This document shows positions 8,460 to 55,409 of a DNA stretch of 64,000 nucleotides, piece by piece. Position 1 is the stretch's first letter, and each line of letters opens with the position of its first letter. The DNA comes from the human T2T-CHM13v2.0 reference genome, Homo sapiens. Where the stretch lies: NCBI RefSeq assembly GCF_009914755.1, contig NC_060928.1, one strand, 5' to 3'. The translations under genes were made by a program, and so were the position numbers. Under the pieces are notes generated by a model. That model saw only the letters and a program-made list of their open reading frames with translations, was not told the origin of the DNA and made no database searches.

Positions 8460-10100
8460 CTTTTTCAAAACTTTCTGAGTTGACAGTAGAGAGTAAGCTA
8501 TGATTCCAAACCAAAGAATAGGCAGAGATCTTAAAAGGTATTAAAAGAGCACCAAAGTTGCTTTTCAGCATGAGTTCCTCTCAAACTCCTGGAATACTGA
8601 ACTAGTTTGTACATACTAAAAGAAGGACAAAATATAAAACCTAGACTCTACCCAATGTGGAAAGTATAATAAGACATCTTAGTTAAGTTGGAAGACAAAA
8701 GCATCTCATTATAGAGGTAAAATAGTTTTAAAAAAATCCCTAAACAAAAGGTATAGGACAGAAACTCACTTATTTCAACTATGGCACTAAAGAATAGAAG
8801 GGGTGAATTCCCCCTGAGAATTCATACTACCTCAAACGCTGACATGGATGGAATCACTGAATTGCCACAGAGCAGTTGAAATACTTCAAATAAATTAATA
8901 TAAAATAATTTCAGATTGGTAGTACCACTAATCACTCTTGAGAAATAAATTAACCTGTAGAAACAATCAAGCCCTAGCTTCTAAAAATTTGTTCATAAAA
9001 AGTGTCAAGGAATACAATCAGTACAAAATCAAATGCTACAAAACACAAAAAAGACCCAAAACAACACACACAGTGAATTAAATCAGCGAAAACAATAAGC
9101 AGCTGAAAATATCTGAAGAGAAGATTTCAGGTAACAAAATTTTCAGAAAAAAAAATTTTAAATGTTGGCCAATACGTTTTAAAAAATTAAAATAAAAATA
9201 TGAAAGTATAAACAGAACTAAAAATAAGGAAAAGCAAATAAAATTTTATAATAAACCAAAAGGATATCTAGAAATGAAAAACAGAATTGTTGAAATATTT
9301 AAAATCAAGGACAAAATTTATAGCTTAATAGACTTAGTTGAAGAGAAAATCAGTTAACTAAAATAGATTTCTGAAGAAATTTTCCATAAAAAAATAAAAG
9401 TTATAAAAGACGGTAGGTATAAAAAAACAAAGATCAAGAAATAGGTAATGAGAATGTAAAATTCTACTCAGTGTTTAAAAAAAAGTAGAAATGAGATTCT
9501 TAATGAATTAATTAAAGACATTCACAGATTCATAAAGCCCTGTAATACTAGCTAGAGAATAGAAAAAGTAATTACACCTGTATCTACAATATAAAAAGAC
9601 AACAAAAAACTAGAAACCAAACAGAAATAATAATTGAACAACAAACTTCTCAATAGCAATAATTTAGAAAAAGTGATTTTTTTAAGTTGATAAGCTAAAA
9701 CACAATTAACCCAGAATTGTATTCCATAAAAACTGTTTTTCAAGGGCAAAAGTAAAATAAAGACATTTTCAGACAATAAAAATCCCATTTATCAATAAAA
9801 GAAAATCTAAGGAATGCCCTCTAGTCAGAAGGAAAAAGCTCATTGATGCTTTCTGCAGGTCTGATGAATTGACCTGCAGAAACAAAGTAAGCCCTACCTT
9901 TAAAAAATTTGCTCAGAGAAAGTTCCAAGGAACATGACTAGTGCAAAATCAAATGCCATAAAATATAAAAGGACACAAAAAGAACACAAAACACAGTAAA
10001 TTAAAATCAGCAAAAACAATAAGCAGCTGAAAATATCTGAAGAGAAGATATTTTAGGAAAGATTGATAAATATGTGAATAAAACTTAGGAATATTAACCA
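8460..10100 (+). mobile_element. Old L1M 5'/ORF1 region, degraded, with internal ~175-bp duplication
   Basis: A-rich with ORF1-like motifs (GAAGAGAAAATCAGTTAACT, CCCAGAATTGTATTCCA, AAATAAAGACATTTTCAGAC). Confidence 0.65.
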
Positions 10101-26774: not shown

Positions 26775-26970
26775 TATGTATAACTATACATAAACACTCA
26801 CATATATGTGTATATTTATATGCAAGATAGTCTTTAATTGTTGAAATAAAGTAATAAAACATACGTACTATTTCTTTTTCTTTCAGGGTATGAAATCTGT
26901 GTTTATTCATTTATTTTTTTTTTTTTTCCATTATCACAAACCCTTGTAGCAGAGCACATCTGCCCATGAT

Positions 26971-27264
26971 CTTTTCTCTTTTTTTTTTTTTTTTCACTTT
27001 AAGTTCCGGGATACAAGGGCAGAACATGTAGGTTTGCTACATAGGTATACATGTGCCATGGTGGTTTGCTGCACCTATCAACCCGTTATTGAGGTTTTAA
27101 GCCCTGCATGCATTAGGCATTTGTCCTAATGCTCTCCCTCCCCTCTTCCCCTATTCCTCGACTGGCCCCAGTGTGTGTTGTCCTCCTCCCTCTGTCCATG
27201 TGTTCTCATTTCTCAACTCCTGCTTATGAGTGAGAACACGCGGTGTTTGGTTTTCTGTTCCTGC
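26971..27264 (-). mobile_element. L1PA (L1PA7/8-like) 3' end, ~290 bp, 5'-truncated
   Basis: Poly(T) then ACTTTAAGTTCCGGGATAC...GTGCCATGGTGGTTTGCTGCACC...GAGAACACGCGGTGTTTGGTTTTCTGTTCCTG; no clean TSD. Confidence 0.92.
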
Positions 27265-27409
27265 ATACACACAATTTCAAAGTGAAGAGTGCTATATGTA
27301 ACAATTGCTGAGACAATGTTCTATATTAACATTTTAATACAAATAAGATAATCTTAGTTGTCAGTTTTTTCTCTCCTGATATTATCACTATATTCCTATA
27401 AACTATATT

Positions 27410-28190
27410 TTTTATTGAAGTTATTAATGAAGCACCTACCTTATTTCAACTATAGTTCTAAGCATTGCACAATATCATTAAAAAAACAAAAATACCTACC
27501 CTTATCAAGTTTGCATTATATTTTGAAGAAATAGACAGAAAAATAAATAAGTAAATTATATAGTATGTTGGAAGGTGATAAATGTTCTGGGAGAATTAAA
27601 AAAATCAGAGGATGATTTGGGCATATTGCTGGGAAGAATGTGTTGCTATTTTAAGTAACGTAGTAGAAAAAGGTCTGACTGAGTTGTAGTAATATCTGAG
27701 CAAAAAGTGCAGGTAGTAAAGGAACTAATCATGGGAATAGCATGTCCGGCAAACCACAAGACCCTAAGGAGGGAACATACCCAGCATCACAAGAGATGAG
27801 CACAGGGGTCACGGGGCTGCTGCAGAGGGAGAAAAGCGGGTTGAGTGAGAGAAGATGGTGTGAGGGAGATAACAATGGGGCTATAAGGGAGCGTCTGGAA
27901 ACCAATGATAAAATAATTGGCTTTTATTTGGGTGTGATGTGCAGTCTTTAGAGAGTTCCGTGGTTTAATTTATGTCTAACCAAGTTTCCTCAGGTTACTG
28001 TGCTAAGAACAGACTGAAGGGGTCAAGAGTGGAAATAGGGATGGCAGTTAGGAGACTATTTAAATCACCAGGATGAAAGACAATGACAACTTGAACCAAG
28101 TTATGGCAATAAGGTGGCAATAAGTAGAATCTAAACATATTTTAAAGGCAGAGCCAAGACACTGCTGATAGAACAAGTGAGATCATGAAA
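27410..28190 (-). mobile_element. L2 LINE fragment
   Basis: AGCACCTAC, GAAGGTGATAAATGTTCTG, GCAGTTAGGAGACTATT, GACAACTTGAACCAAG, TTAAAGGCAGAGCCAA. Confidence 0.75.
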
Positions 28191-34399: not shown

Positions 34400-34965
<566 letters not shown>

Positions 34966-37543: not shown

Positions 37544-37800
37544 GTACTAACAAAATGTCCTATTTTTATCAATATTTTTAAGAATATTTTTATTAGTACT
37601 AACAAAATGTCCTATTTTGTATCACTATTTTAAAGAATATTTTTATTACTACTAATAAAATGTCCTATTTTTATCAATATTTTAAAGAATATTTTTATTA
37701 GTACTAATAAAATGTTCTATTTTTATCAATATTTTAAAGAATATTTTAGTACTATTTAAATGTCCTTTTTTATCAATATTTTAAATAATATTTTTAAGTA
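37544..37800. repeat. AT-rich minisatellite, ~52-bp unit x ~5
   Basis: Unit GTACTAACAAAATGTCCTATTTTTATCAATATTTTTAAGAATATTTTTATTA; copies start at 37544, 37596, 37649, 37701, 37749. Confidence 0.95.
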
Positions 37801-44807: not shown

Positions 44808-46245
44808 GATTATCTTTGTTTTGTGTTGCTATATCAAAATACCACAGACTGGGTCATTTATTAAAAAAAGAAATTTATGGCCAGGTGTGGTGGCTCACAC
44901 CTGTAATCCCAACACTTTTGGTGGGGGGGGTCAAGGCAGGATGATGGCTTCAGGACGGGAGTTTGAGACAAGTCTGAGCAGCATAGCAAGACCCCATCTC
45001 TACCTCCTCAAAAAATGTATTTTAATTATCCAGGCATGGTGACTCAGATCTATAGTCCCAGCTACTTGGAAGGCTGAGGTAGGAGGATAGCTTGGGCCCA
45101 GGAGTTTGAGATTGTTGTGAGCTATGTTGTGGCACTGTACTCCAGTCCGGGTGACAGAGTGAGACTCTATCTCTTAAATAATAAAGGAAGATATTTCTTA
45201 CAGTTCTGGAGGCTGGGAAGTCCAATATCAAAGTGCCAAAATCTGGCAAGGGCCTTCATGCTGCATCAGATCATAGCAGAAGGCTTGCAAAGATAAGAGA
45301 GCATGTGAGCAGGAAAGCAAGTGGGGAATGAAATCCCTTTTACAACACATCTACTCCTGTGATAACTAACTCACTCCCTCAATAAAGACAAACTCTTTCA
45401 TTAATGCAGAAACCTCATAACCTTATCATGTCTTATTAAGCCCCACTTTCAAATGCTGTTGCATTGGAAATTAAGTTTCCAACACATGAACCTTTGGGGA
45501 TACCTTCAAACCACAGTATACTGCCCTTGGTTCCCAAAATTCACATCCTTCTCACAATGCAAAATATGTTCATTCCATTCCAATAGTCTCAGAAGTCTTA
45601 ACTCATTCCAGCATCAATATACAAGTCCAAAGGCCAGAGTCATGTCTAAGCTAGATATGGGTGAGACTTAAGTCATAATTCATCCTAAAATAAATTTCTC
45701 TTCAGCTATGAACCTGTGAAATTAACAAGATATGTGCTCCCAATATACAATGGTGGGACAAGCATAAAATAGACATTCCTATTCATAAAGGGAGAAATAC
45801 ACAAGAAGAAAGCAGTCCCTAATAAGTCCAAAGCCCAATGGGGAAAACAACGTTAAGTCTTAAGGCTGGAAAATAATCTTTTTTGACTCTGTATCCTATA
45901 TTCTAGTGGGGTGAGGATTGGGCCACAAAACCTTTCACAGTCCTGCCTTTATGGGTTTGCTGAACACAGGCCACACTGTATCTCTCACAGTTTAGTGTCT
46001 TCTGCCTGCAGCTCCCTCAGATTGGTTTTGCACACTGGTAACTCTACAGTTCTGGTGTCTTGGGGTGGCCCTGATTCTGTGGATCTACTAAACATTGCCT
46101 TAGTGGGGACTTTCCACAGTGGCTCCTTTCCTGTGAGAAGTCTCTGCCTGGCCCGAGACTATCCACAACATCCTTTAAAATCTAGGTGGAAGAAGTCATG
46201 CCTACACAAATCTTGCATTCTCTGCACCTGCAGAATTAGCACCAG
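44808..46245 (-). mobile_element. MaLR MSTC/D LTR (44808-45519) plus MST-internal fragment (45520-46245), truncated
   Basis: AATACCACAGACTGGGT, CAGTTCTGGAGGCTGGGAAGTCCAA, TTCAAACCACAGTA, then internal CAAAATTCACATCCTTCTCACAATGCAAAAT and TACAATGGTGGGACAAGCATA. Confidence 0.85.
44879..45185 (+). mobile_element. AluJ
   Basis: CATAGCAAGACCCCATCTC and AGGAGGATAGCTTGGGCCCAGGAG (J-type). Confidence 0.9.
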
Positions 46246-46514
46246 AGAAAACCAAACCCATGAAGACCAAGATGGCCAAAAAGACACCTAAGCCACTGAA
46301 TGATTGGGAAGTGAGACTGAAAGTTTCTTACCAAGATTAAGACTTTCTAAACCACCTTGTAAAACAAACAAAAATAAACAAACAAACAAAAACACCTGTT
46401 TGTAACTTGCTCTTCAAAAATCTCTTGACAGGATGCCAAGTAGAAAAGAAACTTACTCTTAATATATATTTGAGATATAATTAATAATTTGGCTCAAAAA
46501 AACTAATAGCAGGA

Positions 46515-47985
46515 GTTCTTAGTTTTATTTCCATTATACAAAGAACTTTGAAGACACCACTCCATTCCTTATGGAACAATCATAGCTGAACAAACTAAAA
46601 ATCAATAATGTTTCTAATATCCATCAGATAATTGACGTAGCAGGACGAACTGCTTTCCTGAAATCTGGAGAAACAAGCGAACCTAAAGTAATAGTCAAGA
46701 TCTCTTTACATGGAGCAGAAGCCACTGGAACCAAATGAATAGTAGTTTTGATAAGTAATTGGTGGGTGAGTGTGGGCTACATTGAATATGAGAAAATTCT
46801 AGGGGCTGTAGCCTTCAGAGGACCCCTCACTTTCATAAGATTTATGTTCAACCCACCATGGCGAAGATGCGAGAAAGATCTCCCCATGACTATAGAAGGG
46901 GGACAAAAGGAGTAATCCTTGTGAATTAACACCATGACATTAACAAAGGCCTACTATCCTGAAGAAGACTGTACCAGAGTTTTCTAGAGCCTTAATAGAA
47001 GGTCATTCTTTCCACCCTAGCCCCCACCAGCATTCCTATATCAGATAAGAAGGGAAAAAAGATACACAAGAAAAAAAACTTACACAGGTCACAGGCCAGA
47101 GACACAACGCACAAAAGACTGAGATAAATTTTAAGGTTATAAAAAGCCTTCCTCCCTCACGTGTTAACATTACACCACCAGAGCTCATGTATTTAATAAT
47201 AGTGGGTAACAGCTGAAAAAGTTGCAAGATACAGACTCTTTCTAATAAGGAATACTTAAGAAGGCCAAAGTCACGAGGAGTGGCAAAAAGAACAGCAGAA
47301 AAATTTAAAGCCTCTGCCATGTAAATTGCAGAGACCAAGAAACAAAGCCCAACTTCTAGTTAAATTAACACAAATTCTCACGTTAGAGAAACATTATACT
47401 TTGTTTCTGTTATCTGATGAACATACGTGGTTTCTGGCAAAAACCACAAGTCATGCTCTAGGCCCTGAGGAAAAAGCCTGAAGAGAGAAAACAAAGATAA
47501 GAACCTGACTCAGATTTGACACAGATGTTGAAGTTATCAGACAGACAACCTAAAAATAACTATAGTTAATATGCTAAGGGCTGTCATAGAAAAAGTTTAC
47601 TATTATAAGAAAGAACAGATGGGTAATGTGAGTCAAGAAATGGAAATTTTAAGAAAGAATCAACAGAAAATTCTACACATGAAAAGCATTGTAAGAAAAT
47701 TTAGAATGTCTTAGATGGATGCATATTAGACTGGAAATGACCAAGGAAAGAATCAGTGACCTTGATGATATGTCAGTAAAAAGTGCCCAGAATAAAATGT
47801 AAAAAGAAAAAAAATGAAAAAACAGAACATAACATCAAAGAATGACAGAACGATTTTTAAAACTGCAATATAGACATAACTGATATAAAAACAGAGAAAG
47901 AAAGAAAAATAAAATGCAAGAAATACTTGAAGCAGTAATGGCTGTGAACTTTATAAAATTAATGAAAGACATCTAACCACAGATC
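46515..47985 (+). mobile_element. L1M (MD/MC-type) 5'UTR and ORF1 first half
   Basis: GCTGAACAAACTAAAAATCAA, CAGATGTTGAAGTTATCAGACAG, GAAAGAATCAGTGACCTTGA, ACCACAGATC. Confidence 0.75.
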
Positions 47986-48024
47986 TCATGTTCTCATATT
48001 GCTTAGTACTACTATTCCTCCCCA

Positions 48025-48200
48025 ACTCCAGAAGCAAGTGCTTATTGAGAAAAAGAAGAAGCCAAATTTAACAATTATTTGATTGGTTGCAGTTATAAAG
48101 TTGCTTTTTTTGTTGTTTTTCACCTTACTCAAGTCTCTAGTTATGTAAGTATAAGACTGTTGGCTCCTTCTGATTGGATGAGCTTAAGTTCTGTTTTACT
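48025..48200 (-). mobile_element. ERV1 (MER4-group) LTR fragment, apparently continued at 50684-50765
   Basis: TTTGATTGGTTGCAG and CTGATTGGATGAGCTTAAGTTCTGTTT motifs; family not pinned down. Confidence 0.45.
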
Positions 48201-48384
48201 TTTCCTTTGCTTTTTAAAAAATCTTAATTAAATATATTTTACTTAAAATAGCAGTTAATGTCATACCAACATCTTGTTAGTTGAGAAATTGTATGCTTTT
48301 TATAAACATAATTAAAACCTTATAAAATTCAGAGTACTACTATTCTTAGTACCACTGTTCCTGCAGCTAAACAACTCATTCTTC

Positions 48385-50460
48385 CTAGTGCACACCATAA
48401 AAGAGTATAGAAAAAATACAATAAGTTAGATAAAATGAAAAACTGTAAGTGTTCAATTAATCCAAGCAATGACAGAAAAGGAAGATAAGGAGACAGAGAA
48501 CAGAGGCAATAATTATGAAACATGTAGCAAAAGTAGCTGAATTTTAAAGACAGTAATTAAATTGTATGACATGGACTGCATGTTTTTAAAAAGGACATAA
48601 CTTGTAAGACTTAAAAATAAAAGCAATATGCAACATGCTTTCAATAGATGCATTTTAAAATATAAAGTCATGGAAAAGTTCAGATAACATAATGGAAAAA
48701 GATACAGCATGAAAAATATAAACTCAAAAAGTTAATGTGGCCATATTAGCATTAGACAAACCAAACTGCAGTACAAGGAGTATTGCCAGAGATAAAAAAG
48801 GGCACTTCATAAAGATAAAATGGTCAATTTAATTTTTCTAAATATATACTAAATGACAGAGCATCAAAATTCATGAAAGCAAAATTGGCAGCACTAAAGA
48901 AAGAAAAGTATACATTTGTAATAATAGTGAAGAATTTGACATCCTTCTCTCAATAATTGATAAGGCAAGTAGACAAAAATATATTATTGTAGAAGATTTG
49001 AACAACACAATCAACTAAATTAGTCTAATTAATATTTACAGATCACCATAGAGCTATAATATATGCAAATTATTAACTGAATACATTTCAAAGTTTTGAA
49101 ATCATACATAGTATCTACTATTAGCCCAACAAAATTAAATTAGATACATAAAAAAGATACATAGTTATTCCCTAAAATACTTAGTAATAAAGCAATATTC
49201 TCCTAACTAGAACTACTGGTTAAAAAAATAAATTACAAGGGAAAATAGAAATTATTTCCAGTTGAATGACAATTAAAGTACAATACATCAAAATTATTAG
49301 GGGATAAAATTAAATATTTGCGTGGAGGAAAATGTATAGCTTTAAAGGCTTACATTATTTTTTAAAAAAAGGGAAAGTATAAAATCTGTGAGCTAAATTT
49401 TCCACTTAAAAGCCAGATGAGCAAATTAAAGAAGCCAGAAAACTATATTAAAAAAATTTAAGAACAAATTAGTTTTTAGAAGAAAGAAAAGAATAGCAAA
49501 AATCAATGAAATAGAATTCAAATTAGTAAAAGACAGAGTTGGTTATTTAAAAAGATTAATGGAATTGATAGACAAATAACAAGACTGATCAAGAAAAAGA
49601 CATTAACATTTTTAGCAACAGAAATTAAAACATGATCATTACAGTTTCTATACATATTAAATATATAATGAATTCATAACTATAAACAGCATTAGTAAGT
49701 TTTGATAATATTTGGGATTTAGAAGATCATTTTCTTGGAAAATACAGGTTACCAAAACTATCAAAAGACAAAATATAAGCTTTGAATACCCCTATATTGT
49801 TTTTTTAATTTATAATTTAAAATCTTTCCACAAAAATTCCAAGCCCAGATTGCTCAATTAGTAAATTATTTCAAATATTTAAGTAAAATCATTGATTAAT
49901 TAGAAGAGAAGTGAATGCTTCCTAAAGCATCTAATCCAGCTTTCAAAAATTTCCAAAAACATTACTGATAAAGTTATAGATTAATATCATTCATGGATTT
50001 AAATTGAAAAATTCTCAAGAAATATCAGCAAATTGAAGCCAGTAATACATAAAATATAACACTACGAGGAGAACTAACTCCAGGAATGTCAGCTTGGTTT
50101 AACATTTGAAAATCAACCAATGTAAATCAACACATTAAAAAGCTAGCAAAAAAATACACCATCTATGTAAATGAAGAAAAAAAACTTGCCAAAAATTATA
50201 TATGCATTCTGGATAAAAACTCTCAGCAAATTGGAAGTATAAAATTAATTTCTCATCATTAATGGTAAAGTGGTGAAGTTTTAAATGTTCCTCCCCTATG
50301 AAAAGGCAAAATGGTAAATTTAACATGGCCCTTGAGGACTTTATTCAAAAATGTGATAAAAAAGAATATTTATGAAAATTGAAAATAAAAGAAATGCAAC
50401 TGTTTGCAAAAAATAGTTATTGTAAAGAATTAATAATACAACAAAGCTAATAGAATTGTA
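48385..50460 (+). mobile_element. Old L1M ORF2 5' half
   Basis: CAGAGATAAAAAAGGGCACTTCATAA, TCTCTCAATAATTGATA, GAAGATTTGAACAACAC, CAGGAATGTCAGCTTGGTTTAACAT. Confidence 0.8.
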
Positions 50461-50503
50461 AGTTAATATAGTAGAAAACAGGCTGCAAAGTTAATAACCT
50501 AGA

Positions 50504-50597
50504 TTTTTTTTTTTTTTTTTTGAGACAGGGTCTTGCTCTGTCACCAGGCTGGAGTACAGTGGTGTGACCTCTGCTCACTGCAACCTCCGCCGCCCGG
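50504..50597 (-). mobile_element. Alu 3' fragment (~94 bp, AluSc-like), no TSD
   Basis: Poly(T) plus GAGACAGGGTCTTGCTCTGTCACCAGGCTGG...CAACCTCCGCCGCCCGG, then an abrupt switch to non-Alu sequence. Confidence 0.9.
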
Positions 50598-50683
50598 AGA
50601 ACACGCGGTGTTTGGTTTTCTGTTCCTGCATACACAATTGCAGGAGTTGAGAAATGAGAACACATGGACAGAGGGAGGACAAC
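50597..50683. other. Templated insertion: direct copy of 27232-27276 plus inverted copy of 27177-27223
   Basis: 40-nt exact identity 50597-50636 = 27232-27271; 40-nt exact identity 50640-50679 = reverse complement of 27184-27223. Confidence 0.9.
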
Positions 50684-50764
50684 AACACAAGCATTTAGCA
50701 GAAATGACCCAAGTTTAGTTTCATTTATGTCTGTAGTCTTAAGCAACGTCAAGGCTATTTTTAA

Positions 50765-52975
50765 GGCCTAGGCATATTATACTTAAAATTCTTTAAAACA
50801 ATTATAGGAGAAAATCTTAGAAGTAGTCAGAGAAAAAATATATATGTAAGAGAAAAGATAAAGAAGATAGTAGATTGGAAGCAATGCAAGTGAGAAAACA
50901 AAAGAGAAAAATCTTTAATGTAATGCAAAAGAAAGAAAACTGTCAACATGGAATTTTATATTCAGTGAAAATGTCTTTCAAAAGAGAAAGTAAAATACAG
51001 ACTTTTTAGACATGCAGAAGCTGAAATAAGTTTTCACCTGAAGACTTGTGCCATAAGACATTTTAAAGAAGTTAATTCTTGTAAGGCAAAAGAAAAATGA
51101 CATTAGATGGAAATATGGATTTACACTATACAAATAAATGAAGAGCAATGGAAATGGTAATTCTAGGGGAAATATCAAAGATTTTTCTTTTTATTTAAAT
51201 CAATTCAAAAGATAATTGTTTAAATATGTGGGATACAAAACATTAACACACATATATAAATATATATGTAACACACCTATATTAACATATTTGTTAACAC
51301 ACACATATATTAACATATATAAACACACATATATTAACATTTGCATGTTAACACATACATTAACATATATATGTTAATACACATATAAACATGTATGTTA
51401 ACACATATACATATGTATATATTGACATATATGTCAATATATGTGTTAATATGTCACTATGTATGTGTGCATATGTTAACATATATGTACATATATATGT
51501 AACTTGTATGACAATAGTGTCATAAATGCCAGGAAGGAAGAAATGGAAAATTTCTTCTATGATAAGATTGTTGTACTATAAATGAAATACTATAATATCA
51601 ATTGGAGTTAGGCTGCATTAAATTAATGATGAATATGATAAATCCAAAAGAAACCAATAAAAAAAAAGAACTATACATAATAAACCAACAAAGGAGATAA
51701 AATGAAATCATAAAATTTATTAATCAAAAAATGTAGAAAAAAGTAAAAAGAGAACAAAGAGCATTTATGGCAAATAGAATCCAAAAGGAAGGTCATAGTC
51801 TTAGTGCTAATATAAATAGACACATTATATGCAAGTGTTCCACATAGTACAAATAAATAAGAAAAATAGTCCAAAAAAATTGATAAAAAAATTGAATAAA
51901 AATAAAAACAAGAGAGACCTAACTATACTTATTACAAAAAAGCTAACTTTAAATAACCAGACATTTATTATTAATAAATAATAATAAGACATTGAAAAGG
52001 AAATAAGGAAAAAAAATACCATCCTAACTGTAGGTAGAAGACTTGTTAGAGAATAAAAAATCAAGCCACAGGATGGGATAAAAATATTCATAATGAAGAT
52101 ATCTGAACAGGACTTGTATTGGAATATATTAAAGATTCTCAAAACTTAATAATAAAACAAAAAAATTAAACAAATAAAATTTTTCCACAGATACTTCATT
52201 AAAGAGAATACATAAAGAGATGAAAAGTATATGTAAAGATTCTCAGTATTACTCAGGAAAAGCTAAGTTAAATTAAAACCACAATATATACCACTATACT
52301 TCTATTAGAATGGCTATAAAGACTGTCTATACCAAATGATAGTATGAATGTGTTGGAATTGGAAATGTTATACACCACTGGTGGGAATGTAAAATGGTAC
52401 AAGCAATTTAGAAAATGGTTTGACAGTTTCTTAAAGTGTTAAACAGATGTCTACCATAAAATCCAGATGAATGAAAGCATACATTCATAACAAATACTTG
52501 TGCACAAGTGCTCATAGCAGTTTTACTTGTAATAACTTTAAACTGGAAATGGCTCATATGGCAATCAGCAGATAAAAATATAAATTATGTAATATCTACA
52601 TAATGAAAGACTTCTCAGCAATTAAAAAAGATTTAACTATTGATACATAATAACATGGATGAATCTCAAAATGATTATGCTGAGTACAAGAAGTCAGAAA
52701 GAATAATGTGTGATTTCATTTACATAAATCTTTAGAAACGGCAAACCAACATAGTACAGAAAGATGAACAGTGTTGTCCTGGGGAGGTGGAAGGATAAGG
52801 AAGCAGGGAGGGGTGGGATTACAGGAGACATGAGGCAGTATGGAGATGATGCATGTTCACCTTCTTGATTATGGTGAGGATACCTTTTGTATAGACATGT
52901 ATCAAAATTAGCCAATGATGCTTGTTAATTGTGTTTATTAACATCAATTTTACCTGTATAAAGCTGTAATATTTT
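50765..52975 (+). mobile_element. L1M ORF1 second half, inter-ORF, ORF2 start, then jump to 3' end
   Basis: CCTAGGCATATTATACTTAAA, AACTGTCAACATGGAATTTTATATTCAG, GGTGGGAATGTAAAATGGTACA, ATGGATGAATCTCAAAA. Confidence 0.8.
51240..51505. repeat. AT/CA low-complexity repeat with embedded palindromes
   Basis: ACATATATTAAC-type units switching to GTTAATAT; perfect palindromes at 51359-51378 and 51417-51442. Confidence 0.85.
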
Positions 52976-53710
52976 TTTAAAAGTATAACAACAGATGGGA
53001 AGTGAGAATGTTGGTAGGTAGTAGGGAGTCTATATTTTTTAGACTATAGAAAATTGAATTCCTAATTAAAATTACAACTCTAAACTCTGCACCAGACGAA
53101 GTTCATATTACAAGATAACTCACTGAAACTTTTAAAGTACAGATAATCCCCACAGTCTTTCCACATTTCTGGCACATATTCAAAGACCCACTGATTTTAA
53201 ATATTTTTAATTTAATTTTTAAAATGATGTTAGATTTACAGAAGAGTTGCAAAGATATTACAGATATTTTCTGTGTACTTCTCATCCCAGCTTTCCCTCA
53301 TATTAACATTTTATGTAACCAGGGCACATTTGTCAAAACTAAGAGGTCAATAATGGCACAATATTGTAAATGAAACTACGAACTTAATCTGGATTTCACC
53401 AGTTTTTCCAATAATATATTTTTTCTTGTTCCAAGTTTCAATTAAGGGGCCCACATTATATTCAGTTTCCATTGTTCCTTTGACACTTCTAATCTGTGAT
53501 GGTTTCTCAGTCTTTCCTTATTTTTCATGACATAGAAACTGAAGCGTGCTGTTCATGAATTTTGTAATGTGTTCCACAATTTTGGTTATTTCAATGCTTT
53601 CTCGTTATTCAACTGGAGTAATGAATTGTGGAGCAATACCACAGAGGTAAATTTTTTTTCATCATATCTTATCAAGGAGAACATGATATTATGGCTTTCT
53701 ACTGGTGGTA

Positions 53711-54051
53711 TTTATTTATTTATTTTATTTTATTTTATTTTATTTTATTTTATTTTATTTTATTTTATTTTATTATTTCTTTGAGGTGGAGTCTTGCTCT
53801 GTCGCCCAGGCTGGAGTGTAGTGGCGCGATCTCCGCTCACTGCAAGCCCCGCCCCCCGGGTTCACGCCATTCTCCAGATTCAGCCTCCTGAGGAGCTGGG
53901 ACTACAGGCGCCCGCCATTACGCCTGGCTAATTTTTTGTAGTTTTAGTAGAGACGGGGTTTCACCGGGTTAGCCAGGATGGTCTCGATCTCCTGACCTCG
54001 TGATCCGCCTGCTTCGGCCTCCCAAAGTGCTGGGATTACAGGCGTGAGCCA
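53711..54051 (-). mobile_element. AluY with long (TATTT)n tail
   Basis: TTCACGCCATTCTCC, TTAGCCAGGATGGTCTCGATCTCCTGACCTCGTGATCC; TSD TCTACTGGTGGTA (53698-53710) / TCTACTGGTGATA (54052-54064). Confidence 0.95.
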
Positions 54052-54497
54052 TCTACTGGTGATACTAACTTTCATCACTTGGATAAGGTAACATAACCCG
54101 GGTTTATATACTATAGATCTCCTCCTTCCTTGGTAATTAATAAATATTATGTGGCGTTACATGGAGACTACGCAAATATTCTGTTTGCCTGAAACTTTTA
54201 CCCACTAATTTTAACATTCATGGTGGATTGTGCATTTATGCCTGTGGCATTCTAATGGTGATTTTCTGTTTTCCTCATTTATTTCACATTTTAAAAATGG
54301 ATTTATTCTGTAAGAGTTGTCATCTTCCATATATTATTTATTCAGTCATTTCTTTATATCAGTATGCACTCATGGATATTTATTTTTTCTTTAGTCTAAA
54401 GCCAATACTATTTTTATTTATACTTGTCTTCAAACTGTTTGAGCGTTGACCACTTGGGGCTTTTTCAAATTGTCTCTTTCAAACTGTCTCTTGTGTA

Positions 54498-54683
54498 TCA
54501 TTCCCACCAGCATTCACCATTCCCGGCGCCAGTCCTGGCCACTTAGTATCTTAGAGGGGTAGTTTTATGCACGCTTGTTTTCACTAGGTGAGAACCAAAC
54601 ATCTCTGGAGTTCCTTCCTGGTCCTGCTCATTATTTCAGAGGGGTAGATTTTTAAAAAACAAAACAAAACAAAACAACAAAAA
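54498..54683 (+). pseudogene. Unidentified short retroposed sequence (156 nt plus A-rich tail)
   Basis: Interrupts L1MC; TSD CAAACTGTCTCTTGTGTA (54480-54497) / CAAATTGTCTCCTGTGTA (54684-54701); tail AAAAAACAAAACAAAAC at 54654-54683. Confidence 0.8.
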
Positions 54684-55330
54684 CAAATTGTCTCCTGTGT
54701 ACTTTTGATATGCTCTCATCTTTGTGTTTTAGTTGTTGTTAGCCTTCCTTACCTTCTGCCACGATGAGTTGTTTCAGGGTCCTCTTGGCTTTTACCTTTT
54801 CCAGACTTGGAATAAATTGTGAACTACTTTTCCAAGGAGCCCTGTCTCTTTTACCGAATAGTGGTAGTTAGGAACTATTTTCCTAGTGCTAGGTACGCTC
54901 TTTATTACCGGAGTGTCATCAGTTGTAGGCCCACTCCACCGACAGAATGTGGAAATAAATGTTATCTGTACTAGCTCATGTTTATATATATTTGTGTATT
55001 TATTTATTTATTAATCTGTGTTTATATATAATGTATATATATGCACATCACATATATGAATAATGTCAAACATACACACACCCCAAAATAAAGCAAAATG
55101 TGAGTTCATACTGATATATCTGATCAGTCCACAGGGGTTAATACCACAGGGTTCATTCCATTATTACCCTTTTGCTCCTTTGAAACTTCTTTTTCCAACT
55201 AAATAAAAAATTGGTTTGTATTATCTACAATACATTTACATATTTGCTGAAACCTCGTATATGTGTAGTTTCAGAATTGCTAATACATATCCCTGTGTGA
55301 AACAAACTTGTTTACTAGAGTAGTAAACAA

Positions 55331-55409
55331 TTGCTTCCCAATTCGTGAATTGGTGTTTGCTCAAATTAACTCTATGATTTTATTGTTGTGTCAGTTTTTC
55401 TTTTAACAA
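55331..55409 (+). mobile_element. ERV1 (MER4-group) LTR 3' terminal fragment
   Basis: CTTCCCAATTCGTGAATTG..TTTGCTCAAATTAACTCT...GTTTTTCTTTTAACA, a typical LTR end. Confidence 0.55.

What the first reader, a model, noticed from the sequence alone, without database searches (positions are those of the whole stretch)
50597..50683. Junction patched with two pieces copied from 23 kb away, one inverted
Seen: immediately after a truncated Alu, 50597-50636 is identical over 40 nt to 27232-27271. It includes the L1PA truncation point and its unique flank (CTGC|ATACACA, then ATT). Next, 50640-50679 is the exact reverse complement of 27184-27223, the adjacent donor stretch; a 1-nt G microhomology joins Alu and insert. 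Because the copy spans the L1/flank junction, it should come from this specific locus rather than a generic L1 RNA. Inference: long-range in-cis template switching (FoSTeS/MMBIR or polymerase-theta templated insertion) at a rearrangement or Alu-insertion-mediated deletion, recording a past physical contact between the two sites.
Basis: partly seen in the sequence, partly recalled or inferred. Interest (0 to 1): 0.75.

Follow-up and report, generated by a model that had tools for sequence, protein, structure and literature searches.

The report
Repair patch in shuffled human DNA
Two short pieces copied from a spot 23 kb away seal one of six junctions in a 9-kb stretch of old repeats that was cut up and reordered, likely in one repair event and likely only in the human lineage; no functional effect is evident.

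Summary
Observation confirmed: both 40-nt matches are exact, and the donor is this locus. The Alu-insertion option fails: donor and copy differ by at most 2 substitutions, far less than the Alu piece has drifted (combined P about 0.009), and there is no target-site duplication. The patch is one of six junctions between 46244 and 55332. There an LTR-like repeat lies in three pieces (one inverted), an L1 ORF1 is split, and a MaLR-like element and the Alu are cut off. Short copies from the same donor lie at other junctions (3 of 8 matches of 11 nt or more fall in 275 nt of junction filler, P 4e-6; a gapped test was not significant). A published fixed human-specific 2.9-kb inversion (chr4_inv92) maps to about 50802-53704 under a recalled, unverified hg38 offset. 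Best reading: clustered breaks rejoined out of order by synthesis-dependent microhomology end joining. Known class, intergenic, function unlikely.

The parts
27174..27278 (.). Core donor: truncated end of an L1 3'-end fragment (L1PA-type, label recalled) plus its flank
26966..27266 (-). Donor L1 3' fragment with poly(A); no target-site duplication found; 23 of 250 non-CpG sites differ from the majority of 19 paralogs
27622..27658 (.). Possible second donor spot: three adjacent matches (9, 9, 15 nt) to junction fillers at 47995, 48377, 48239
   Evidence: weaker, post hoc
50504..50597 (-). Poly(A) and last 76 nt of an old Alu, cut at 50597; rest of the Alu not in the window; no near-identical source among 40 scored genome hits (best 93-94%)
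50597..50639 (+). Patch piece 1 = 27232-27276 less one CA unit; 1-nt overlap with the Alu
50640..50689 (-). Patch piece 2 = reverse complement of 27174-27223 with two mismatches; starts with a 6-nt inverted repeat of piece 1 (7-bp stem); ends in 6 nt shared with the right flank
50684..50770 (+). Fragment h: third piece of an old LTR-like repeat; begins where fragment c stops; 5-nt overlap with the L1 ORF1 piece at its right end
48030..48202 (+). Fragment c: middle piece of the same LTR-like repeat; 18 of 39 genome hits stop at 48202, 1 goes further
55332..55409 (-). Fragment m: first piece of the same LTR-like repeat, opposite strand
55323..55331 (.). Junction filler B5, 9 nt; forms the right arm of a perfect 10-bp hairpin (55308-55330)
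46245..46257 (-). Junction B0: MaLR-like hits stop at 46244 (26 of 40 non-self rows exactly, none of the left-hand ones past 46254); a 12-mer equal to the reverse complement of donor 27245-27256 starts at 46246
46587..47988 (+). Fragment a: 5' part and first half of ORF1 of an old L1; 46258-46586 before it has no paralog hit
   Evidence: L1 label by collinearity in paralog L054
47989..48029 (.). Junction filler b (41 nt), with three 9-mers matching the donor region and a 13-mer shared with filler d
48203..48396 (.). Junction filler d (194 nt, no paralog), with two donor 11-mers (48279, 48355) and a 15-mer from 27644-27658
48397..50503 (+). Fragment e: inter-ORF and ORF2 piece of a second old L1; no close copy among 40 scored genome hits
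50767..55322 (+). Fragment I: second half of the L1 ORF1 (Pfam PF17490 at 22.6 bits, cutoff 22.2), L1 3' parts and an old minus-strand L1 3' element; likely the body of published inversion chr4_inv92
53698..54061 (-). Younger Alu with 10-nt target-site duplication; its left edge coincides with the inferred right end of chr4_inv92

Best explanation
The 93-nt patch was copied from 27174-27276 and joins a cut Alu to the middle of a cut LTR-like repeat; it is one of six junctions between 46244 and 55332 that likely arose in one germline event, likely in the human lineage, by clustered double-strand breaks rejoined out of order through synthesis-dependent microhomology end joining of the polymerase-theta type. 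Shown: donor identity, the broken repeats and where each piece resumes, single copy of all large fragments among scored hits, youth of the copy relative to the Alu. Inferred: five fragments (u+a, c, e+Alu, h, I) were reshuffled and mostly inverted, with loss of the Alu 5' part, the LTR 3' end and the rest of the MaLR-like element. Inferred for the patch: the two broken ends each copied adjacent, non-overlapping stretches of the donor's minus strand (the right end primed by 6 nt, the Alu end by 1 nt); the left tail folded back on itself to make 6 nt that paired with the right tail. Inferred: the donor region was exposed as single strand near the breaks and also fed short pieces into other junctions.
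For: Donor. Age: Alu 4 of 60 against 2 of 178 (Fisher P 0.037), CpG 6 of 8 lost against 0 of 4 (P 0.030), combined 0.009; donor L1 23 of 250 against 2 of 178, P 0.0002; 1.1 changes expected at a recalled 0.6% per lineage since the chimpanzee split. Breaks with both ends kept: c|h with about 0 nt lost (L073 369|370), m|c with at most 39 nt, a|I with about 55 nt; one paralog, L089, tiles h, c and m in the order and strands expected. Sharp edges at 46244, 48202, 50684, 55322/55332. Shared donor: 3 of 8 matches of 11 nt or more lie in 275 nt of filler (P 4e-6); without the post hoc B0 filler 2 of 7 in 244 nt (P 3e-4); 0 of 1691 pseudo-donors and 0 of 1258 pseudo-targets match filler d as well at k=11. 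6-nt overlap at the right end expected 2.5% by chance. chr4_inv92: inverted in all 10 non-human primates, concordant in 17 of 18 human haplotypes including CHM13, 1 NA; its downstream flank shows 8.5% and upstream 2.7% apparent human-lineage divergence, as expected if the event is wider than listed.
Against: No ape sequence could be examined, so the ancestral order is reconstructed from repeat tiling only. The hg38 offset rests on recalled PCDH10-DT coordinates; a search for them found nothing; the listed length is 2902 against 2933 for 50771-53704 and 2782 for the alternative 47989-50770. Donor signal in filler d is test-dependent: gapped score reached by 25 of 299 pseudo-donors, P 0.02 at k=9, donor tile ranks first of 619 at k=11 but not at k=10 or 12, and 7 of 132 control targets reach the same cover with some tile. 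The fold-back stem has a 6-8% chance level within the donor. Piece orientations in d do not follow the simple two-end order. The polymerase cannot be read from sequence.
Confidence: 0.55

Rival explanations
1. One replicative multi-switch event (FoSTeS/MMBIR): a collapsed fork jumped between templates about ten times, visiting the donor several times.
For: Templated pieces in both orientations, 1-6 nt overlaps, repeat-unit slips; PMC4617611 invokes template switching for complex deletions with distal templates.
Against: No large fragment is duplicated; three nested returns to within 0, 39 and 55 nt of a departure point come naturally from breaks that keep both ends and need coincidence under fork jumping.
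Confidence: 0.22
2. Several independent events of different ages; the patch marks only the human-specific one and the short donor matches elsewhere are chance.
For: Single junctions cannot be dated without orthologs; gapped and k=10/12 tests are weak; only one 2.9-kb inversion is listed nearby.
Against: The junctions are chained by shared breaks (c|h, m|c, a|I); binomial P 3e-4 to 4e-6 for donor pieces in fillers; raised divergence in both flanks.
Confidence: 0.13
3. The patch was reverse-transcribed from a read-through RNA of the donor locus, both break ends priming on one RNA (twin-priming geometry) by L1 ORF2p or polymerase theta.
For: Both pieces can be read from the donor's minus strand, the sense strand of its L1; they are adjacent, non-overlapping, 8 nt apart; ORF2p bridging of break ends is reported.
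Against: No poly(A), no target-site duplication; some filler pieces need the other strand or a fold-back; no transcript is annotated over the donor in the hub table.
Confidence: 0.07
4. One reading: the patch closes the 5' junction of a new truncated Alu insertion with target-site deletion.
For: Alu piece has a poly(A) and is cut at the patch; templated DNA at retrotransposon junctions is described.
Against: Alu much older than the copy; no duplication; reported templates lie typically within 15 bp of the site; the right flank resumes a repeat broken 2.5 kb upstream.
Confidence: 0.02
5. Assembly artefact or chance match between L1 copies.
For: L1 3' ends are abundant; 35-nt exact matches to piece 1 exist at two other loci.
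Against: Junction 25-mer exact only at donor and copy; 10 shared minority states; copy and donor differ at three places; CHM13 agrees with hg38 in orientation at chr4_inv92.
Confidence: 0.01

Closest known systems
Complex deletions with templated insertions, 'Ins with MultiDup and Del' (1000 Genomes, PMC4617611; passages read)
   Same: Germline junction holding two or more copied pieces; distal template over 10 kb away, seen in 41 of 1,651 complex sites.
   Different: Here the patch belongs to a multi-fragment inversion/reordering, likely fixed, and other junctions seem to share the donor.
Distant inverted insertions at breaks in yeast RPA/Rad27 mutants (PMC11724301; passages and section 19 read)
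   Same: Two pieces of one distant locus in opposite orientation, adjacent with little or no overlap, about 6 nt between them, short overlap at one end.
   Different: 6 nt overlap at the right end exceeds their 0-4 nt; natural primate germline; embedded in a larger rearrangement.
chr4_inv92, fixed human-specific inversion (PMC11092980; passages, section 40 and rows of Tables S7, S9, S12 read)
   Same: Likely the same event: inferred window place 50802-53704.
   Different: Listed as a simple low-impact 2.9-kb inversion; the rows seen give no junction anatomy. The window shows six junctions over 9 kb.
Germline chromothripsis/chromoplexy-like rearrangements with polymerase-theta-type junction insertions (PMC8052244; passages read); SD-MMEJ snap-back model (PMC5728401, PMC2943611; search listing only)
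   Same: Many breaks, fragments rejoined in new order and orientation, small losses, templated or patchwork fillers.
   Different: Scale of 9 kb on one chromosome, intergenic, likely fixed in a species.
Templated DNA at L1/Alu insertion junctions (PMC11702581, bioRxiv 10.1101/2024.08.27.596794; passages read)
   Same: Short genomic copy next to a truncated retroelement.
   Different: Alu predates the copy; no target-site duplication; template 23 kb away.

Membership tests
Templated insertion at a rearrangement junction (distal template) | Insert matches one identifiable locus better than any other | tested here: met
Templated insertion at a rearrangement junction (distal template) | Flanks were not adjacent before (true junction) | tested here: met
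   Alu cut at 50597, LTR-like piece starts mid-element at 50683-50684 in 11 of 14 hits
Templated insertion at a rearrangement junction (distal template) | Donor retained (copy, not move) | tested here: met
Alu insertion-mediated deletion / TPRT junction | Insert and Alu of the same age | tested here: not met
   combined P 0.009
Alu insertion-mediated deletion / TPRT junction | Alu absent from outgroup orthologs | not testable with these tools
   no primate genomes held
Retrocopy of the 48203-50597 block | Surviving source locus, poly(A) tail, target-site duplication | tested here: not met
   no close copy, no tail or duplication at 48202; a T-rich endonuclease-like site is there, but 7% of window positions lie within 2 nt of one
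Chromothripsis-like break-and-rejoin | Several clustered breaks with both ends retained | tested here: met
   c|h, m|c, a|I
Chromothripsis-like break-and-rejoin | No copy gain; some fragments lost | tested here: met
   (scored hits and window only)
Chromothripsis-like break-and-rejoin | All junctions arose together | tested here: inconclusive
   shared-donor tests mostly for, partly null; needs ape orthologs
Chromothripsis-like break-and-rejoin | Usual working threshold of about ten breakpoints with random order (recalled criterion) | tested here: not met
   six junctions found; works like it, below the usual count
Polymerase theta-mediated end joining | Microhomology of 2 nt or more or templated fill at junctions, fold-back synthesis | tested here: met
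   6 nt at 50684, 5 nt at 50767, 7-bp stem at 50624-50645, 10-bp hairpin at 55308-55330
Polymerase theta-mediated end joining | Template within about 100 bp of the break (recalled norm) | tested here: not met
   donor 19-28 kb away in the present genome
Polymerase theta-mediated end joining | Dependence on POLQ | not testable with these tools
   historical event
FoSTeS/MMBIR | Copy gain of kb-sized segments | tested here: not met
   only pieces of 50 nt or less are duplicated
chr4_inv92 (identity with this event) | Coordinates overlap after liftover | tested here: inconclusive
   recalled offset gives 50802-53704; not verified; no breakpoint within 53200-53712, but the Alu at 53704 would stop an alignment
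Alu-Alu or L1-L1 recombination inversion | Inverted homologous repeats at both breakpoints | tested here: not met
   Alus at 50504 and 53704 are co-oriented; no hit for the recalled hg18 prefix in the table of PMC2603318

The most novel reading that the evidence does not exclude
A 9-kb chromothripsis-like shattering became fixed in all humans, and at least four of its six junctions were patched from one single-stranded DNA or RNA template 19-28 kb away, with both break ends of the main junction priming side by side on the same template strand. Catalogued small 'simple' human-specific inversions would then hide one-step multi-break events readable from human sequence alone by repeat tiling.
Probability: 0.35. 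Interest if true: 0.65.

Novelty: new member of a known kind. Interest (0 to 1): 0.45.

Why it matters
It ties a catalogued fixed human-specific inversion to a nucleotide-level repair history, and shows that the listed 2.9-kb 'simple' event is likely a six-junction shuffle. One distal donor feeding several junctions speaks to where repair templates come from. The test is cheap: complete ape genomes settle it in one alignment. It also warns that the very high 'divergence' listed for this inversion is likely misalignment. Functional weight is low: the site is intergenic, about 5 kb from a predicted lncRNA and 86 kb from PCDH10-DT (hub table), and was classed low-impact with no regulatory overlap.

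Tried and rejected
Target-site duplications for the Alu and the donor L1: none. Near-identical source for the Alu piece or for the 48203-50504 block: none among scored hits, so a retrocopy or plain duplication was rejected. The two old L1 pieces e and I as one element: rejected, they overlap in the inter-ORF region and are only about 66% alike. A breakpoint at 53.5-53.7 kb: rejected, hits span it. Missing parts (Alu 5' part, LTR 3' end, MaLR continuation) in the window: not found; DNA beyond the window was not examined. A one-sided template left of 27278: dropped after matches at 27622-27658 appeared. Gapped similarity test of filler d: not significant, 25 of 299. Pfam scan of 12 frames: only 1 relevant hit, so other L1 labels rest on paralog collinearity and recall. 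Supplement searches without a relevant row: PMC4617611 (1 file held, its Tables 12-13 not seen), PMC6749001 (12 of 14 files, two cut), PMC2603318, PMC6191304. PMC6178954 not held. No paper joined PCDH10, inversion, human-specific and chimpanzee/4q28 (0 papers with 4 of 5 terms); searches gave no listing on this junction, but the library lacks most subscription papers and large tables.

Full report
1. The observation. Both matches are exact at the stated coordinates. The donor is the best non-self hit in the genome for each piece (40 of 147 candidates scored). A 25-mer across the L1/flank junction is exact only at donor and copy, with one 1-mismatch site elsewhere. Donor and copy share 10 minority states against 31 paralogous L1 copies. 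Piece 1 is 27232-27276 less one CA unit; piece 2 is 27174-27223 inverted with two mismatches at 27182 (copy agrees with 31 of 31 paralogs) and 27183 (donor agrees with 30 of 31); the same place can also be read as a 3-nt slip.

2. Not an Alu-insertion junction. The Alu piece differs from the majority of 66 other Alu ends at 4 of 60 non-CpG sites and has lost 6 of 8 CpGs, an average old Alu. Donor and copy differ by at most 2 substitutions in 178 lineage-sites and keep both CpGs: Fisher P 0.037 and 0.030, combined 0.009; copy lineage alone gives 0.085. Against the donor L1's own drift (23 of 250) P is 0.0002. No target-site duplication exists and no near-identical Alu source was among 40 scored hits. 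The Alu was cut long after it inserted. Zero to two changes fit the roughly one expected since the chimpanzee split at a recalled 0.6% per lineage; the 95% range reaches 4% per lineage.

3. The patch is one junction of six. Right of the patch an old LTR-like repeat (TG...CA ends; family not determined) starts in mid-element: 11 of 14 hits begin at 50683-50684. Its preceding part lies at 48030-48202, where 18 of 39 hits stop and 1 goes further, with about 0 nt missing between the two. Its first part lies on the other strand at 55332-55409; none of 39 hits crosses 55322-55332, and the 9 nt between form one arm of a perfect 10-bp hairpin. One paralog tiles all three pieces. An old L1 ORF1 stops at 47988 and resumes at 50767, about 55 nt on (Pfam PF17490 for the second half). 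A MaLR-like element (label recalled) stops at 46244 in 26 of 40 rows and its continuation is not in the window. So the order is Z | u+a | c | e+Alu | h | I | m, and three breaks have both ends retained. No large fragment has a close second copy among scored hits.

4. A shared donor. Outside donor and patch the window holds 8 matches of 11 nt or more to the core donor; 3 lie in junction fillers: 46246 (2 nt from the MaLR edge), 48279 and 48355. P is 4e-6, or 3e-4 without the junction I found through its match. For filler d, 0 of 1691 pseudo-donors and 0 of 1258 pseudo-targets do as well at k=11; P is 0.02 at k=9. Three more matches (9, 9, 15 nt) point to 27622-27658. Against: a gapped score is reached by 25 of 299 pseudo-donors; the donor tile is first of 619 at k=11 but not at k=10 or 12; 7 of 132 control targets reach the same cover with some tile. 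I hold the shared donor likely, not proven.

5. A published inversion. PMC11092980 lists chr4_inv92 at hg38 chr4:133003573-133006475 (2902 bp; macaque 2881), inverted in all 10 non-human primates, concordant in 17 of 18 human haplotypes including CHM13, classed fixed, intergenic, low-impact. An offset from recalled hg38 coordinates of PCDH10-DT puts it at 50802-53704: left end near the h|I junction, right end at the edge of a 354-nt younger Alu that would stop a human-macaque alignment; no true breakpoint lies in 53200-53712. Its listed divergence is 2.7% upstream, 9.4% in the body and 8.5% downstream, against 0 to 0.7% for neighbour chr4_inv90, as expected if the rearrangement is wider than listed. 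The offset is not verified. A listed human-specific inversion within 3 kb of a given point by chance has P about 3e-4. The alternative placement, 47989-50770, would still be this event.

6. Mechanism. Shown: donor, junction positions, overlaps of 1, 6 and 5 nt, two fold-back stems, no copy gain, youth. Inferred: clustered breaks, fragments rejoined out of order with end losses, gaps closed by short templated synthesis. For the patch, both pieces can be read from the donor's minus strand: the right end primes at 27174-27179 by 6 nt (chance 2.5%) and runs to 27223, 8 nt short of where the Alu end starts at 27232; the left tail folds back to make 6 nt that pair with the right tail (7-bp stem, chance 6-8% within the donor). 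Polymerase theta is the usual enzyme for such scars (established knowledge; PMC8052244 passages), but its templates are normally near the break, so the donor must have been exposed and close, or released as a fragment as proposed in yeast (PMC11724301 section 19). FoSTeS/MMBIR, separate events, and an RNA template remain rivals.

7. Comparison and verdict. Distal templates are known: 41 of 1,651 complex deletions. Two inverted pieces from one distant locus are known from yeast. Templates at retrotransposon junctions lie mostly within 15 bp. The inversion is catalogued. What I did not find in print (searches; tables not held may bear on this) is this junction anatomy. New member of a known kind; interest 0.45. 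Repeat family names other than L1 ORF1 and Alu are recalled, not from a call.

Noticed in passing
window 26907-26995: The donor L1 has a second T run and 43 unique nt beyond its tail, like a short 3' transduction; absent from 19 paralogs; no target-site duplication found, so the donor site may itself have been altered.
   Followed up: partly
window 34608-34945: Young full-length Alu with a perfect 17-nt target-site duplication and AluYa5-like marks (label recalled); candidate human-specific or polymorphic insertion.
   Followed up: partly
window 51970-52037: The old L1 in fragment I jumps from the start of ORF2 to its 3' end, an internal deletion of unknown age.
   Followed up: partly
window 9089-9125 and 10013-10049: 37-nt exact direct repeat 924 bp apart in otherwise old sequence; may be another recent templated copy or small duplication.
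   Followed up: no
window 37552-37760: Local tandem units about 52 nt apart with 27-31 nt exact matches.
   Followed up: no
window 55326-55335 and 27300-27309: 10-nt match between the B5 junction and the donor flank; cannot be told from the fold-back reading.
   Followed up: partly
hg38 chr4:132,123,898-132,146,887 (outside the window): PMC11092980 lists two abutting inversions (chr4_inv89, inv90; the second fixed human-specific) about 0.86 Mb upstream; possibly another complex event.
   Followed up: no
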